Origin: a phage
Length of the DNA: 64,000 nt
Sequence record: PZ496581.1
Strand: one strand, 5' to 3'
The notes below the pieces were generated by a model. It made no database searches. It was not told the DNA's origin and saw only the letters and a list, made by a program, of their open reading frames with translations. The first letter of the stretch is position 1. Every line of letters begins with the position of its first letter. The translations under genes were made by a program, and so were the position numbers. This document shows positions 31,348 through 37,778 of the stretch, one piece after another.

Positions 31348-32172
31348 TTAACAATTTATAGACCAAGTCCATTTAGACGAATCTAAAGGAAAGTTTTGAA
31401 TCGTCCACCACGGCTGCATATCAGTTGGTCCTGGGGTTCGCCAGGTATATGGAGTACGTGTTGTCGAGGGGCCACCAATTTGATTAGGCCATGCACCTGG
31501 ACTTGTTGCACCAGATTCTTTAAGCAAATCCGCCAATCGTTTTAAAAGGTCTTCACGATCTGAATCTGAATTATTCTTAGGCAGAACCAAACGAGATTCA
31601 ATATCATCCCACGTGTGTACACGTTGTGCAGTACGAGGAATGGCATCACGTTCACCACGAGCCAACCAATAAATCGGTACATTAAGAATTTCTGCCGCAT
31701 GGTCACAATGATGAGCTAAATCGTCAACGTAACAAATTACGTTATATTTTGTTTTAGCTAGTTCGAATAATTGTTCCTTTGAAGAATCATGACCACACAT
31801 CATTACTTCAGAGAAAGCGCCTGGGAACAAAGCATTCAAATTAAATTGTCTATTCAATCGAGCATCAATTGAATCACCTAGCGCCGTCACGGCTACAAAA
31901 TTATAGTCTTCTTTTAGTTTATTGATAACTCGAAGAGCATCAGAATAAGGCGCTAAGTAACGAATAAAATCAGAGCTATTATATTTTTCTATTAATTGTT
32001 TACCAAGGTTATCGTCGGTATTGAACAGTTTACCAGGAGAAATAAATTTTTCGTCCTGAATCATTTTTAAAATATGTTCTAATGGAAGGTTATATTTTTG
32101 GGCAAAATAAGGAAGTCCAGATTGCCAGCTTAAACATACACCATCAATATCAGTCAAAATAGTAGGCTTCAT
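31348..32172 (-). CDS. HAD-superfamily hydrolase-like protein (30.2-like position)
   Basis: 274 aa ORF with N-terminal HAD motif I (ILTDIDGVCL) and a conserved Asp-rich region (CYVDDL); Trp/Pro-rich C-terminal tail. Confidence 0.65.
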   Translation of the reverse strand: MKPTILTDIDGVCLSWQSGLPYFAQKYNLPLEHILKMIQDEKFISPGKLFNTDDNLGKQLIEKYNSSDFIRYLAPYSDALRVINKLKEDYNFVAVTALGDSIDARLNRQFNLNALFPGAFSEVMMCGHDSSKEQLFELAKTKYNVICYVDDLAHHCDHAAEILNVPIYWLARGERDAIPRTAQRVHTWDDIESRLVLPKNNSDSDREDLLKRLADLLKESGATSPGAWPNQIGGPSTTRTPYTWRTPGPTDMQPWWTIQNFPLDSSKWTWSINC

Positions 32173-32636
32173 AAAGAGTCTCTTAATAGGTTTAACACGT
32201 CAATAAATTCATCTTCAGTTAGTATTGTATCATCTTTTGTTAGGTGGCTGGCCATGCTGTGCTTCAAAATTTTTCCTTTAGAGGCTTGTAAGGCATCACG
32301 AAACCCCTTGTTTTGGATCGCGGCTTCAAAATATGCATTTGTGTATAATTCTTTCCACGCTTCGGAGTATCTTGAAAATGGAACTCCTAACCAGAAGAGA
32401 GTCCCACTGTCCTGAGCTCTTGCGTAAGACCTTCCAGCTTGCTGTGCAGCCAATCCAGACAACCCAAATATACGTCTTTGTTGTTCAACATTTTTCACCT
32501 TACATCCTTGGAGAAATCCTTCAAGACCTCCGAATTGAATACCATCCATAACAAAAGGCCATTGAGCAAAGTTACTTAATGCACATGACGGCCATTTGAA
32601 ATTACTTCTTATTTCTAATTCAGACATCTTTAACAC
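32169..32636 (-). CDS. NADAR / YbiA-like (DUF1768) family protein (30.3-like position)
   Basis: 155 aa ORF with the family signature ..ALSNFAQWPFVMDG..GLEGFLQGCK.. resembling E. coli YbiA; ATGA overlap with the HAD-like gene. Confidence 0.7.
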   Translation of the reverse strand: MLKMSELEIRSNFKWPSCALSNFAQWPFVMDGIQFGGLEGFLQGCKVKNVEQQRRIFGLSGLAAQQAGRSYARAQDSGTLFWLGVPFSRYSEAWKELYTNAYFEAAIQNKGFRDALQASKGKILKHSMASHLTKDDTILTEDEFIDVLNLLRDSL

Positions 32637-32838
32637 TTATAATTTCAACATCAGCCCAATGTCCGTATCCAGGTATACGGTCTTCGATAGATAAATTTCT
32701 GTCATTTTTAGGCATTTTAATTGACGTAACGTATGGTTCTAAACGGTTTTCCGCGTAATATGGAAAAACGTCGGTTACACGATAAGTAACTTCAATCATT
32801 TCCGTACCAAACAATTTCTGGATTAATTTATTCAACAT
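32620..32838 (-). CDS. Hypothetical protein
   Basis: 72 aa ORF in the operon-like 30.x array, overlapping its neighbours. Confidence 0.5.
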   Translation of the reverse strand: MLNKLIQKLFGTEMIEVTYRVTDVFPYYAENRLEPYVTSIKMPKNDRNLSIEDRIPGYGHWADVEIISVKDV

Positions 32839-33079: not shown

Positions 33080-33694
33080 CTACTTAATGAAATTAATTTC
33101 TACCGGATGAACAACAGGTTGAGCAGTGATATATTGAGTAATTGCTTTCATGACTAGAGCTTCAGAACCAGGATTTTTCTCAACGAATTCACGTGCTAGG
33201 TTATGAGCTTCGAGTTCACTCAATAAACCGGAACGCTGGCATCCACGGTCTTGAGTACCCTGTTCAGATAAAAGGACTACTACATATTTTTCATCGTCGT
33301 AGGGCTTAGCCAGTTGAGCAAATGTTCCTTTACTTCCAAAAGGAGAGTTATGTCGCCACATCACGCCGTGAGGAGTTTCAACCTTCGTATATTCGTGCGG
33401 TCCATTTTTCTTAGTTTCTTGATGTGGAACTTCATAGACCTTAGGGTTAGGACATTCAATAAAATGCTCATCTAAATCGGTCGAGAATATTAAAGTAAAA
33501 CAATTACTGAATTTACCAACACCGGCCTGATAAATTTTACCTTCAGAAGTTCTAATTTCACAAACTGAGCCGGCATCAGTAACTTCTAAAACTTCAAAAG
33601 GCTCAATAAGGTCATATGAGAACATGTTTTTAAGGCGTGGAGTAATATCCCCATTTTTAAAATTCATTTTATAAAAAGTATTAACTTTAAACAT
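33080..33694 (-). CDS. Hypothetical protein (204 aa)
   Basis: ATG 33694 with SD GAGGAA; a hairpin (tgggagc-cgaa-gctccca, 33703-33720) lies just upstream. Confidence 0.6.
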   Translation of the reverse strand: MFKVNTFYKMNFKNGDITPRLKNMFSYDLIEPFEVLEVTDAGSVCEIRTSEGKIYQAGVGKFSNCFTLIFSTDLDEHFIECPNPKVYEVPHQETKKNGPHEYTKVETPHGVMWRHNSPFGSKGTFAQLAKPYDDEKYVVVLLSEQGTQDRGCQRSGLLSELEAHNLAREFVEKNPGSEALVMKAITQYITAQPVVHPVEINFIK

Positions 33695-33729
33695 AATTTC
33701 CTCAGTGGGAGCCGAAGCTCCCAATTAAT

Positions 33730-36215: not shown

Positions 36216-36786
36216 AAAAGTTTCGAATTTGTTCCCAATTCAGAGAACGAAGATTATTACGAGAGTACTGAATTACTTCAATACCGGCTTGTTTTAGAAT
36301 GTCTGCCCAATTTTCAGGAGATCGGTCATATAATTCTGCATATACAACCTTTTTAATACCTGACTGTGTAATAGCTTTAGTGCAATCAGGGCACGGAGAA
36401 AGCGTAGTATATAACGTAGCACCTTCAATAGAATTACCTTTACGAGCTGCAAACAAAATTGCATTCAATTCAGCATGGATTTCGTTATTAGCAGACCATG
36501 CACTATGAGCGGCCCGATGTTCTTTAGCCAAAACAAAATTATCCACCCGTCCAAATGCTGTAGTGCCTTCTTTATGCCCAGCAACGATGTCCGGGCTTGG
36601 TTTATTCTTCAACCAACCGTTTTCGGATGCATGTTCGCAACAGTTTGTACCACCGGCCGGGCTACCGTTATACCCAGTAGAAATAATGCGCCCATCTTTT
36701 TCAATGACGGCACCAACTTTCCATGAACAACATTTTGATTCTTGAGAAATCAGATATGCAATCTGAAGGTATGTGCTAGCTTTCAT
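36205..36786 (-). CDS. cd: dCMP deaminase
   Basis: 193 aa ORF with zinc-binding deaminase motifs HAELNAI and SPCPDC; T4 Cd is 193 aa. Confidence 0.95.
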   Translation of the reverse strand: MKASTYLQIAYLISQESKCCSWKVGAVIEKDGRIISTGYNGSPAGGTNCCEHASENGWLKNKPSPDIVAGHKEGTTAFGRVDNFVLAKEHRAAHSAWSANNEIHAELNAILFAARKGNSIEGATLYTTLSPCPDCTKAITQSGIKKVVYAELYDRSPENWADILKQAGIEVIQYSRNNLRSLNWEQIRNFCGE

Positions 36787-37778
36787 TATTGAACCTTATT
36801 AATATGAGTTAACAGCTCTTTAGTTTGTTCCCAACTGATGCACGCATCGGTAACGGAAACGCCATAGGACATATTATCAGAAATTTTTTGATTTCCTTCA
36901 TGTAGGAATGATTCTATCATAATTCCTTTGACCAAATCATTAGCTGCTAAATTTTTACCAATACCAATTTGATTGCTATAATGCCCATCAGCGTTTGCAT
37001 GGCTACAGTCAACCATTACATAATGATTCAGACCTACTGCCCTTGCTTTGTTAGAAGCTTCTTGAATATCAGAAGAATGATAGTTCGGGCCGTTGGTCCC
37101 GCCACGCAATACGATATGCGTATTCTGATTACCTTCAGCTTCAACAATGCCTACAGTACCATCGACGTCCATACCCATATACCGATGAGGCCAGGCGGCA
37201 CTATACATCGCGTCTGTAGCTACTTTAATAGAACCATTGGTTGCGTTCTTGAAGCCTACGCACATCGGTAGACCTGAAGCAATTTCACGATGTGTCTGAC
37301 TTTCAGTCGTACGGGCGCCAATAGCAACCCATGAGAAAATACCAGAAAGATACTTAATCGTGAATGGGTCTAATACTTCAGTTGCTAATGGAAGTCCCAT
37401 ACGTAGAAGTTTACGACACAATGTTCGTGCAACTATAAGACCGTGGTTCATATCAAAACTTCCGTCAAGATATGGATCATTTACAAGACCTTTCCAACCT
37501 ACGGTAGTTCGAGGCTTTTCAAAATAAACGCGCATCACTAACAGAACATTAGGAAGACGAGTTTGAAGTTCAGCCAAACGTTTGCCGTATTCAACAGCAG
37601 CAATAGGGTCATGAATTGAACAAGGACCTACAACAATAAGTTTGCGTGGGTCTTCACCGTTCATAATCGAATTAACTTGTTCGCGATGAGAAGCCACTTG
37701 TGATGCGTAAGCTTCCGACAAAGGAATAATCTCAGCCAGTTCTTTTGGAGAAATAAGTTTTCCGACGACAGGTAACAT
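36786..37778 (-). CDS. 3-deoxy-7-phosphoheptulonate (DAHP) synthase, class I (AroG/AroF-like)
   Basis: 330 aa ORF alignable along its length to E. coli AroG: ..VVGPCSIHDP.., ..MRVYFEKPRTTVGWKGL.NDP.., ..AIGARTTESQTHRE.ASGL.., ..ILRGG.., ..IESFLHEGNQ..; SD AAGGA; stop overlaps the cd start (ATGA). Confidence 0.9.
   Translation of the reverse strand: MLPVVGKLISPKELAEIIPLSEAYASQVASHREQVNSIMNGEDPRKLIVVGPCSIHDPIAAVEYGKRLAELQTRLPNVLLVMRVYFEKPRTTVGWKGLVNDPYLDGSFDMNHGLIVARTLCRKLLRMGLPLATEVLDPFTIKYLSGIFSWVAIGARTTESQTHREIASGLPMCVGFKNATNGSIKVATDAMYSAAWPHRYMGMDVDGTVGIVEAEGNQNTHIVLRGGTNGPNYHSSDIQEASNKARAVGLNHYVMVDCSHANADGHYSNQIGIGKNLAANDLVKGIMIESFLHEGNQKISDNMSYGVSVTDACISWEQTKELLTHINKVQ

What the first reader, a model, noticed from the sequence alone, without database searches (positions are those of the whole stretch)
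31348..32636. Translationally coupled NADAR/YbiA-like and HAD-like genes next to DNA ligase and near the Alt ADP-ribosyltransferase
ORF 32169-32636 carries the DUF1768/NADAR signature (..LSNFAQWPFVMDG..GLEGFLQGCK..) seen in E. coli YbiA. NADAR-family enzymes have been reported to process ADP-ribose conjugates, including reversal of nucleic-acid ADP-ribosylation by DarT-type toxins. Its 3' end overlaps (ATGA) a 274 aa ORF with a HAD phosphatase motif I (LTDIDGV). With Alt about 2 kb away, this suggests an ADP-ribose/NAD-handling or anti-defence module. The function is inferred from motifs only.
Basis: partly seen in the sequence, partly recalled or inferred. Interest (0 to 1): 0.6.

Follow-up and report, generated by a model that had tools for sequence, protein, structure and literature searches.

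The report
T-even adfN (NADAR) plus HAD phosphatase
These are the T4-type phage genes 30.3 and 30.2: 30.3 is the already characterised enzyme AdfN, which strips ADP-ribose off phage DNA to defeat the bacterial DarTG1 defence, and 30.2 is a phosphatase of unknown substrate that published data say AdfN does not need.

Summary
The window is an RB69-like T-even phage (Mosigvirus, 99.8% identical to phage APCEc01). The two ORFs are genes 30.3 (152 aa from the ATG at 32627) and 30.2 (274 aa), and they overlap in ATGA.

- **gp30.3:** it is 95% identical to T4 gp30.3, which is AdfN. [quoted passage not shown] The window allele keeps E36, K43 and the phage-specific H123. It lacks the T insertion that truncates and disables the RB69 allele.
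- **The module idea:** it is not supported. T4 transposon sequencing shows 30.2 and alt are neutral under DarTG1 while 30.3 is lost. About 60 of 89 gp30.3-type loci have no 30.2 within 4 kb. About 40% of gene junctions in these phages overlap anyway.

The motif reading was correct, the main function is already known, and only the 30.2 substrate is open.

The parts
32169..32627 (-). [quoted passage not shown]
   Evidence: Pfam PF08010 at E 4e-69. 95.4% identical to T4 gp30.3. hhalign of the family profile against E. coli YbiA gives probability 91.9%, E 7e-7. 25 of 63 family members also hit Pfam NADAR.
32520..32522 (-). Codon GAA = E36 of AdfN, a catalytic residue.
   Evidence: Invariant in the 63-sequence family alignment. 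E36A impairs T4 AdfN (PMC11825919).
32499..32501 (-). Codon AAG = K43 of AdfN, a catalytic residue.
   Evidence: Invariant in the family alignment. K43A impairs T4 AdfN.
32259..32261 (-). Codon CAC = H123, the histidine that in phage NADARs replaces the Glu/Asp of the last strand in other NADARs.
   Evidence: Invariant in the family alignment. Described as the hallmark of phage (gp30.3) NADARs.
32217..32218 (-). Site where RB69 carries an extra T (nt 411 of the gene), which creates a stop and removes the C-terminal helix. The window has no insertion.
   Evidence: Pairwise DNA alignment of the window and RB69. The RB69 30.3 CDS is annotated at 414 nt. The paper describes the same lesion.
32169..32172 (-). 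ATGA: the 30.3 stop (TGA) overlaps the 30.2 start (ATG).
   Evidence: Read directly from the sequence. The same 4-nt overlap is present in 16 other T-even-like loci analysed.
31588..32172 (-). Gene 30.2, residues 1-195: HAD-superfamily catalytic core with a helical C1 cap. Motifs are D8/D10 (32143-32151), T96 (31885-31887), K132 (31777-31779) and D150-D151 (31720-31725).
31348..31587 (-). Gene 30.2, residues 196-274 plus the stop codon: one helix (202-221), then a Trp/Pro-rich tail predicted to be disordered. The tail varies in sequence and is absent from many orthologues.
   Evidence: pLDDT is 46-60 after residue 220. Orthologues of about 200-220 aa lack the tail.
32620..32838 (-). Gene 30.4 (72 aa), upstream of adfN and overlapping its start by 8 nt. 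Included as context; it may affect adfN expression or function.
   Evidence: ORF and annotation. Found only in T-even-like loci, always just upstream of adfN. T4 insertions in 30.4 are depleted under DarTG1, log2FC -1.79, adjusted p 0.014.

Best explanation
The locus holds two separate accessory genes of a T-even (RB69-like) phage.

**Gene 30.3 (adfN).** It encodes a small stand-alone NADAR enzyme. When the host toxin DarT1 ADP-ribosylates guanine in phage DNA and blocks replication, AdfN hydrolyses the ADP-ribose-guanine bond and restores replicable DNA. It acts as an orphan antitoxin against DarTG1.
- Shown for the T4 orthologue: the activity and the phenotype.
- Inferred for this allele: the same function, from 95% identity, intact catalytic residues and an intact C-terminus. 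I therefore predict this phage is DarTG1-resistant, unlike RB69.

**Gene 30.2.** It encodes a Mg2+-dependent phosphomonoesterase of the HAD superfamily.
- Inferred mechanism, from general HAD-superfamily knowledge: D8 is the nucleophile, D10 the acid/base, T96 and K132 bind the phosphate, and D150/D151 hold the metal.
- Its cap domain and an aromatic residue (W16) resemble 5'(3')-deoxyribonucleotidases. The most likely substrate is a nucleoside monophosphate or a related small phosphoester, but this is unproven.
- It is dispensable in the laboratory and is not required for AdfN's anti-DarTG1 function.

**Adjacency and overlap.** I read the 4-nt overlap as inherited T-even gene packing rather than as a sign of a two-enzyme pathway.
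For: **Genome identity**
- 99.8% DNA identity to Mosigvirus phages, with the T4 gene order alt-alt.1-30-30.1-30.2-30.3-30.4.

**AdfN**
- PF08010 at E 4e-69 and 95.4% identity to T4 gp30.3.
- E36, K43 and H123 are invariant across 63 homologues.
- The family profile matches YbiA and Pfam NADAR.
- The RB69 frameshift is absent from the window.
- Published genetics and biochemistry for T4 AdfN.
- T4 transposon sequencing under DarTG1 gives log2FC -7.25 for 30.3.

**gp30.2**
- A confident model (pLDDT 85) with a HAD fold.
- Catalytic motif residues are invariant or nearly invariant across 68 homologues.
- Motif I and W16 align with the nucleophile position and an aromatic residue of mouse deoxyribonucleotidase 2jao.
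- An Acinetobacter-phage orthologue and a distant family member touch Pfam NT5C.

**Independence of the two genes**
- 30.2 is neutral under DarTG1 (log2FC -0.12, p 0.61, 71 insertion sites). It is also neutral in LB and in M9.
- Of 89 gp30.3-type loci, 18 have 30.2 directly adjacent, RB69 has it after a 42-nt gap and six have it 0.4-1.2 kb downstream. About 60 have none within 4 kb.
- T4 annotates a middle promoter for 30.2 inside 30.3.
Against: **AdfN**
- No experiment has been done on this exact allele. It differs from T4 AdfN at about 7 residues.
- T4 AdfN needs an unidentified T-even factor for full activity, so the mechanism is not fully understood.

**gp30.2**
- Sequence profiles for HAD families stay below their thresholds.
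- The structural neighbours are spread over many HAD subfamilies with near-equal scores, so the nucleotidase assignment is weak.

**Independence**
- The 30.3-30.2 pair with its ATGA overlap is kept across T-even-like phages, and an Acinetobacter phage keeps the pair with a 1-nt gap.
- One Vibrio phage has a different HAD (NT5C family) overlapping its NADAR gene in another genomic context.
- Some functional link therefore cannot be excluded.
- The transposon data come from T4 on E. coli K-12 with one plasmid-borne DarTG1.
Confidence: 0.85

Rival explanations
1. 30.3 and 30.2 form a two-enzyme ADP-ribose-processing module. AdfN releases ADP-ribose from DNA, and gp30.2 then dephosphorylates it or a breakdown product. 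Alternatively, gp30.2 is the unidentified T-even factor that T4 AdfN needs for full activity.
For: - The 4-nt ATGA overlap is kept in 17 T-even-like loci, the window's near-twin mogra among them, and an Acinetobacter phage has the pair with a 1-nt gap.
- Both genes occur in about 1,450-1,500 phage records with near-identical host distributions.
- Vibrio phage D484 has an NT5C-family HAD overlapping its NADAR stop codon in a different context.
- AdfN is reported to need an unknown T-even protein.
Against: - T4 insertions in 30.2 are neutral under DarTG1 (log2FC -0.12, p 0.61), while 30.3 insertions are eliminated.
- About 60 of 89 gp30.3-type loci have no 30.2 within 4 kb. Non-T4-like phages carry the NADAR alone.
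- The Klebsiella-phage matches to 30.3 and 30.2 lie at unrelated record coordinates, and several NADAR loci from contigs of T4-like size have no 30.2 within 4 kb.
- The D484 pairing was seen only once.
- Overlapping junctions are common in these genomes.
Confidence: 0.1
2. gp30.2 is itself a counter-defence or host-takeover enzyme aimed at something absent from E. coli K-12. For example, it might dephosphorylate an immune signalling nucleotide or a toxic nucleotide analogue, or act in NAD/nucleotide salvage. This would be independent of AdfN.
For: - It is non-essential and neutral in every T4 transposon condition I read (LB, M9, DarTG1), as expected for a conditionally useful accessory gene.
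- Catalytic and cap residues are strongly conserved across 68 homologues, implying a selected, specific activity.
- It sits in a region rich in small accessory genes next to a proven anti-defence gene.
- A gp30.2-like HAD in Vibrio phage K575 lies beside genes annotated as nicotinamide phosphoribosyltransferase.
Against: There is no direct evidence. The K575 neighbour is on the opposite strand, and it is one case. No PADLOC or anti-defence family assignment was sought or found. Phage HAD nucleotidases are common and usually read as nucleotide-pool enzymes.
Confidence: 0.15
3. AdfN works with Alt: the NADAR reverses or balances ADP-ribosylation made by the phage's own ADP-ribosyltransferases (Alt, ModA, ModB). 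This would explain why it lies near alt.
For: alt, 30, 30.2 and 30.3 are syntenic in T4, RB69, Acinetobacter phage DLP2 and Aeromonas phage PX29.
Against: - alt insertions are neutral under DarTG1, log2FC -0.01.
- In the published assays NADARs removed ADP-ribose from guanine in DNA and not from thymidine, whereas Alt is annotated as an RNA polymerase ADP-ribosylase.
- alt is on the opposite strand in DLP2 and PX29, so there is no shared operon.
- NADAR genes in other phages have no alt nearby.
Confidence: 0.03

Closest known systems
T4 AdfN (gp30.3), anti-DarT factor NADAR (Johannesman et al., Nat Commun 2025, PMC11825919; Cihlova et al., Toxins 2024, PMC11125620)
   Same: Orthologue. 95.4% amino-acid identity, the same length (152 aa), the same position between 30.4 and 30.2, the same ATGA overlap, and the same E36, K43 and H123.
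   Different: About 7 substitutions. The host genome is a Mosigvirus rather than a Tequatrovirus. This allele has not been tested.
RB69 gp30.3 (truncated, inactive AdfN allele)
   Same: Same genus; the aligned 30.3 stretch has 98% mean column identity.
   Different: RB69 has a T insertion at nt 411, giving a 137-aa protein without the C-terminal helix. RB69 is DarTG1-sensitive. The window allele is intact. In RB69 the frameshift also leaves a 42-nt gap before 30.2 instead of the overlap.
DarG1, the NADAR antitoxin of DarTG1 (BC4488 subfamily), and E. coli YbiA (PDB 2b3w)
   Same: Same superfamily and the same SNF...E..Q.K catalytic core. The same chemistry, hydrolysis of guanine-linked ADP-ribose, is reported for all of them.
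   Different: His replaces the Asp (DarG1) or Glu (YbiA) of the last strand. There is no N-terminal extension. T4 AdfN does not rescue DarT1 toxicity in uninfected cells.
5'(3')-deoxyribonucleotidases cdN/mdN and the NT5C family (PF06941; PDB 2jao, 2i7d, 3bwv)
   Same: HAD core with a small helical cap and a DxDGV motif I. An aromatic residue six positions after the second Asp (W16) aligns with a Phe of 2jao. These proteins are among the best Foldseek hits and give the best rmsd values.
AdfN of Bas32 and Bas60, NADARs acquired independently by T5-like and Vequintavirinae phages
   Same: Phage NADARs that counter DarTG1 by the same reaction.
   Different: They belong to other NADAR clades. They neutralise DarT1 without phage infection.

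Membership tests
NADAR superfamily, phage gp30.3/AdfN subfamily (Pfam PF08010) | Significant full-length match to the gp30.3 family profile | tested here: met
   PF08010 at E 4.4e-69, 231 bits against a cut-off of 36, covering 138/138 profile positions.
NADAR superfamily, phage gp30.3/AdfN subfamily (Pfam PF08010) | Homology to canonical NADAR/YbiA proteins | tested here: met
   hhalign of the family profile against E. coli YbiA gives probability 91.9%, E 7e-7. The family profile hits PDB 2b3w at E 0.0075. 25 of 63 members hit Pfam NADAR, best E 1.5e-7.
NADAR superfamily, phage gp30.3/AdfN subfamily (Pfam PF08010) | Catalytic Glu and Lys (E36, K43 in T4 numbering), plus His in the last strand as the phage-subfamily marker | tested here: met
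   E36, K43 and H123 are present in the window protein and invariant in 63 homologues. Their roles are described.
NADAR superfamily, phage gp30.3/AdfN subfamily (Pfam PF08010) | Intact C-terminal helix, which is lost in the inactive RB69 allele | tested here: met
   The window has no T insertion at nt 411, and the ORF runs to residue 152.
NADAR superfamily, phage gp30.3/AdfN subfamily (Pfam PF08010) | [quoted passage not shown] | not tested
NADAR superfamily, phage gp30.3/AdfN subfamily (Pfam PF08010) | Hydrolysis of guanine-linked ADP-ribose on DNA, and protection from DarTG1 | not testable with these tools
   Shown for the T4 orthologue in vitro and in vivo. Inferred here from 95% identity.
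HAD (haloacid dehalogenase-like) superfamily phosphatases | Rossmann-like HAD core fold with a cap domain | tested here: met
HAD (haloacid dehalogenase-like) superfamily phosphatases | Motif I DxDx(T/V), where the second Asp marks phosphatases and mutases rather than dehalogenases | tested here: met
   D8-I-D10-G-V. D8 and D10 are invariant in 68 homologues. They align with motif I of the D12N variant of deoxyribonucleotidase 2jao, where N sits opposite D8.
HAD (haloacid dehalogenase-like) superfamily phosphatases | Motifs II (Thr/Ser), III (Lys) and IV (acidic pair) | tested here: met
   T96 is conserved in at least 90% of sequences, K132 is invariant, and D150-D151 are conserved in at least 90%. 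Assigning them to motifs II-IV follows their order and their position on the predicted strands. That assignment is an inference.
HAD (haloacid dehalogenase-like) superfamily phosphatases | Match to a curated HAD sequence profile above threshold | tested here: not met
   Pfam HAD_2 gives E 0.014, 16 bits against a cut-off of 23.8. NCBIfam HAD_type_II gives E 0.094. Membership therefore rests on fold and motifs, not on profiles.
HAD (haloacid dehalogenase-like) superfamily phosphatases | Mg2+-dependent phosphoester hydrolysis | not testable with these tools
   No experimental report on gp30.2 was found.
NT5C 5'(3')-deoxyribonucleotidase family (Pfam PF06941) | Profile match above threshold | tested here: not met
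   The window protein has no NT5C hit. The Acinetobacter orthologue gives E 0.0087, below the cut-off. One distant family member just passes, 26.4 against 24.8 bits.
NT5C 5'(3')-deoxyribonucleotidase family (Pfam PF06941) | Closest structural neighbours are deoxyribonucleotidases | tested here: inconclusive
Co-dependent ADP-ribose-handling module (30.3 + 30.2 + alt) | The partners are needed for the same phenotype | tested here: not met
   From published T4 transposon data under DarTG1: 30.3 -7.25, 30.2 -0.12, alt -0.01 log2FC.
Co-dependent ADP-ribose-handling module (30.3 + 30.2 + alt) | Gene linkage conserved beyond shared ancestry of gene order | tested here: not met
   Direct adjacency was found in 17 T-even-like loci and one Acinetobacter phage. 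About 60 of 89 NADAR loci have no 30.2 within 4 kb. The one exception is an NT5C-type HAD next to the NADAR in Vibrio phage D484.

The most novel reading that the evidence does not exclude
gp30.2 is not just a neighbour. It could be a specific phosphatase acting in the same conflict as AdfN. For example, it might clear a phosphorylated ADP-ribose- or NAD-derived product, or disarm another nucleotide-based defence. Its effect would be invisible on E. coli K-12 with one cloned DarTG1. A second open possibility is that the small T-even-specific gp30.4, whose gene overlaps the adfN start, is the unidentified factor T4 AdfN needs for full activity.
Probability: 0.12. Interest if true: 0.55.

Novelty: already known. 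Interest (0 to 1): 0.2.

Why it matters
That inference matches what was shown experimentally for T4 in 2024-25, so it validates the reading but adds nothing new for 30.3.

For this genome the useful result is a prediction. Its adfN allele is intact, so this RB69-like phage should resist DarTG1, unlike RB69 itself.

The remaining unknown is gp30.2. It is a strongly conserved HAD phosphatase present in about 1,400 T4-like phage records, with no known substrate and no phenotype. Finding its substrate would fill one of the many blanks in the T4 gene map. Nothing here suggests it would be a new kind of system.

Tried and rejected
- **Single-sequence structure prediction of gp30.2.** It gave pLDDT 37 and was useless. 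It cost one of the two prediction jobs, so gp30.3 was not modelled here.
- **Sequence searches of gp30.2 against PDB.** The single sequence and the family profile both gave only marginal hits (E about 0.1-0.4). The fold search was needed.
- **gp30.3 alone against PDB.** No hit. Only the family profile reached YbiA.
- **NCBIfam and PHROGs.** They add no function for either protein.
- **Literature search for gene 30.2.** Nothing found.
- **The AlphaFold database library (afdb50).** It was not available for fold search.
- **Fusion proteins in the gp30.2 family.** P0236, P0274, P0183 and P0226 carry no recognisable extra domain, so domain fusion gives no clue to function.
- **gp30.2 as the AdfN helper.** I considered this and rejected it on the T4 transposon data.
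- **A conserved NADAR-HAD pair.** I considered this and rejected it as a general rule after surveying 89 loci.
- **The NARP3 paper.** It mentions AdfN only in passing and no HAD.
Full report
**What the window is**

The 2.1 kb around the finding is 99.8% identical to Escherichia phage APCEc01. It matches 666 T4-like phage records. The annotated relative mogra is a Mosigvirus, the genus of RB69. It shows the classical T4 order alt, alt.1, 30 (DNA ligase), 30.1, 30.2, 30.3, 30.4, all on one strand. RB69 has the same order. The two ORFs of the finding are therefore T-even genes 30.3 and 30.2.

**Checking the observation**

- Both ORFs, the quoted peptide motifs and the ATGA stop/start overlap at 32172-32169 are present.
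- The 155-aa ORF begins at a GTG only because the ORF lister takes the first possible start. T4 and mogra use the ATG at 32627, giving 152 aa.
- The ligase gene is separated from 30.2 by the small gene 30.1.
- Alt ends 2.0 kb from 30.2.
- The overlap is real but says little. 10 of 24 gene junctions in the mogra stretch overlap, as do 17 of 42 in the RB69 stretch, six of them by 4 nt.

**Gene 30.3 is adfN**

- The protein matches Pfam PF08010 (bacteriophage protein GP30.3) at E 4e-69.
- It is 95.4% identical to T4 gp30.3.
- A profile of 63 homologues reaches E. coli YbiA in the PDB at E 0.0075. By hhalign the probability is 91.9% and E is 7e-7, across the SNF...E..Q.K core.
- 25 of the 63 homologues also hit Pfam NADAR.

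The literature settles the function.
- Schuller et al. 2023 showed that NADARs reverse guanine ADP-ribosylation. They noted that phage NADARs carry His where other NADARs carry Glu or Asp.
- Cihlova et al. 2024 showed that T4 gp30.3 removes guanine-linked but not thymidine-linked ADP-ribose in vitro. It does not rescue DarT1 toxicity in uninfected cells.
- Johannesman et al. 2025 named the gene adfN. They showed it is necessary in T2 and T4, and sufficient in RB69, for growth on DarTG1 hosts. E36A and K43A impair it. RB69 is sensitive because a T inserted at nt 411 truncates its allele by 15 residues.
- A T4 transposon-sequencing preprint independently finds 30.3 insertions eliminated under DarTG1, log2FC -7.25.

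In the window protein E36, K43 and H123 are present, and they are invariant across the family. A DNA alignment with RB69 shows the extra T only in RB69. The window allele is therefore full length. I predict this RB69-like phage is DarTG1-resistant. That step is an inference.

**Gene 30.2 is a HAD phosphatase of unknown substrate**

- Sequence profiles are only suggestive: HAD_2 at E 0.014, and mouse 5'(3')-deoxyribonucleotidase 2jao at E 0.11.
- A first single-sequence structure prediction failed.
- With an alignment of 68 homologues the model reached pLDDT 85. Block means are 88-98 over residues 1-195. A helix spans 202-221, followed by a disordered Trp/Pro-rich tail.
- Foldseek against the PDB returns HAD-fold proteins throughout the 50 hits listed. 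Deoxyribonucleotidase-like proteins (3bwv, 2jao, 2i7d) are among the best and have the lowest rmsd.
- Viral structure neighbours are other uncharacterised phage HADs, some annotated as 5' nucleotidases.
- The alignment shows invariant D8, D10 and K132, and nearly invariant T96, D150 and D151. These correspond to HAD motifs I-IV.
- Many invariant residues also lie between motifs I and II and just after motif II: W16, S18, Y64, N65, S67, D78, R108, N111. This argues for a specific substrate.
- The DxD form of motif I marks phosphatases rather than dehalogenases. This rests on general knowledge of HAD enzymes.
- W16 aligns with a Phe of 2jao. From memory that Phe stacks on the base in deoxyribonucleotidases, so I treat this as a lead only.
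- The family is large, with 417 representative clusters at E<=1e-10. Most members have no Pfam assignment. One distant member just reaches the NT5C threshold.
- No paper on gp30.2 function was found.

**Are the two genes a module?**

Evidence for a link:
- The ATGA overlap is kept in 17 T-even-like loci. An Acinetobacter phage keeps the pair with a 1-nt gap.
- The two genes occur in similar numbers of phage records, 1,511 and 1,442, with near-identical host distributions.
- In Vibrio phage D484 a different HAD (Pfam NT5C, E 6e-11) overlaps the NADAR stop codon by 4 nt. That pair sits in a different neighbourhood, between a late sigma factor gene and SbcD/SbcC-like genes.

Evidence against a link:
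- In the T4 transposon data under DarTG1, 30.2 is neutral (log2FC -0.12, p 0.61, 71 sites). So are alt (-0.01) and adfA/61.2 (-0.34, not significant).
- 30.2 is also neutral in LB and in M9.
- Of 89 gp30.3-type loci analysed, about 60 have no 30.2 within 4 kb.
- Non-T4-like phages of Sinorhizobium, Rhizobium, Brevundimonas and Ralstonia carry the NADAR alone.
- The D484 arrangement was seen once.
- T4 annotates its own middle promoter for 30.2 inside the 3' end of 30.3.
- alt is on the opposite strand in two distant relatives, and Alt is annotated as a modifier of RNA polymerase, a protein.

I conclude that the adjacency is inherited T-even gene packing. A weak functional tie between NADAR and HAD genes cannot be excluded, and I give it about 10%.

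**An open point from the literature**

T4 AdfN works fully only during T-even infection, and an unknown T-even factor is postulated. The transposon data argue that gp30.2 is not that factor.

The only other significant hit I saw in the part of the DarTG1 table I read (genes 26 to cd.4 in its alphabetical order) is 30.4, at log2FC -1.79 and adjusted p 0.014. It lies directly upstream of adfN and overlaps its start by 8 nt. In my locus set it occurs only in T-even-like phages. This may simply be a polar effect of insertions on adfN expression. It is recorded as a lead.

**Verdict**

- Its functional guess for the NADAR gene was right, but it is already published.
- Its module idea involving the HAD gene and Alt is not supported.
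- Novelty: already known for adfN, and an uncharacterised member of a known enzyme superfamily for 30.2. Interest is low, at 0.2.

Noticed in passing
window 32620-32838 (-), gene 30.4: This 72-aa protein has no Pfam family, and its gene overlaps the adfN start by 8 nt. In T4 transposon sequencing under DarTG1 it is the only other significant hit I saw in the part of the table I read (log2FC -1.79, adjusted p 0.014). In my locus set, 30.4 and 30.5 occur only in T-even-like phages, always just upstream of adfN. It could be a polar effect, or the unidentified T-even factor that AdfN needs.
   Followed up: partly
window 36786-37778 (-): A 330-aa phospho-2-dehydro-3-deoxyheptonate aldolase (DAHP synthase, first step of aromatic amino-acid synthesis) lies between cd and cd.2 (PHROG 5045 at E 5e-182). 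RB69 has no gene at this position. It looks like an auxiliary metabolic gene that varies within the genus.
   Followed up: partly
window 33080-33724 (-): A 214-aa ORF with no Pfam family (PHROG 17531, unknown function) sits where RB69 and T4 have the small gene 30.6. This is a variable slot in the 30.x accessory region.
   Followed up: no
window 32215-32250 (-), inside the 3' end of 30.3: T4 annotates a middle promoter (PM30.2) here. The -10-like TACAAT is conserved, but T4's TTGCTAGT upstream of it reads TGGCCAGC in the window and TGGCTAGT in RB69. In this phage, 30.2 expression may therefore depend more on read-through from 30.3.
   Followed up: partly
L002:15225-15268 (RB69): The RB69 frameshift truncates AdfN. 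It also moves the stop 42 nt upstream of the 30.2 start, so the ATGA overlap seen in other T-even phages is lost.
   Followed up: partly
L007:5001-5959 (Vibrio phage D484): A gp30.3-type NADAR gene is followed, with a 4-nt overlap, by a 168-aa NT5C-family HAD (PF06941, E 6e-11). This protein is not a gp30.2 orthologue. The pair lies between a late sigma factor gene and SbcD/SbcC-like genes, not near the ligase. It is the only such case among 89 loci.
   Followed up: partly
L011:4995-5567 (Vibrio phage K575): A gp30.2-family HAD (hmmsearch E 1e-33) lies on the opposite strand beside genes annotated as nicotinamide phosphoribosyltransferase and radical SAM proteins. This hints at a nucleotide or NAD-metabolism neighbourhood.
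   Followed up: no
window 31348-31587 (-), C-terminus of gp30.2: After the HAD core there is one helix and then a Trp/Pro-rich tail predicted to be disordered (...PGAWPNQIGGPSTTRTPYTWRTPGPTDMQPWWTIQNFPLDSSKWTWSINC). The tail varies in sequence, is absent from many orthologues, and in some carries a GTGIEY..QPT motif. Its purpose is unknown.
   Followed up: no
L003:311-538 (T4 record X53848) compared with window 32169-32636: The T4 record annotates an internal out-of-frame ORF, 30.3' (75 aa), with its own ribosome-binding site. The window has no ORF of 40 aa or more in another frame on that strand within 30.3, so 30.3' is not conserved.
   Followed up: partly
phage records RB6, T4_ev240, Sf23 and others (hits H45-H51): A set of T-even phages matches the window AdfN only over residues 1-144, at about 94% identity. 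In loci L016 and L018 the ORF still runs through to the ATGA overlap, so these alleles differ in the last eight residues of the helix that RB69 lacks.
   Followed up: no
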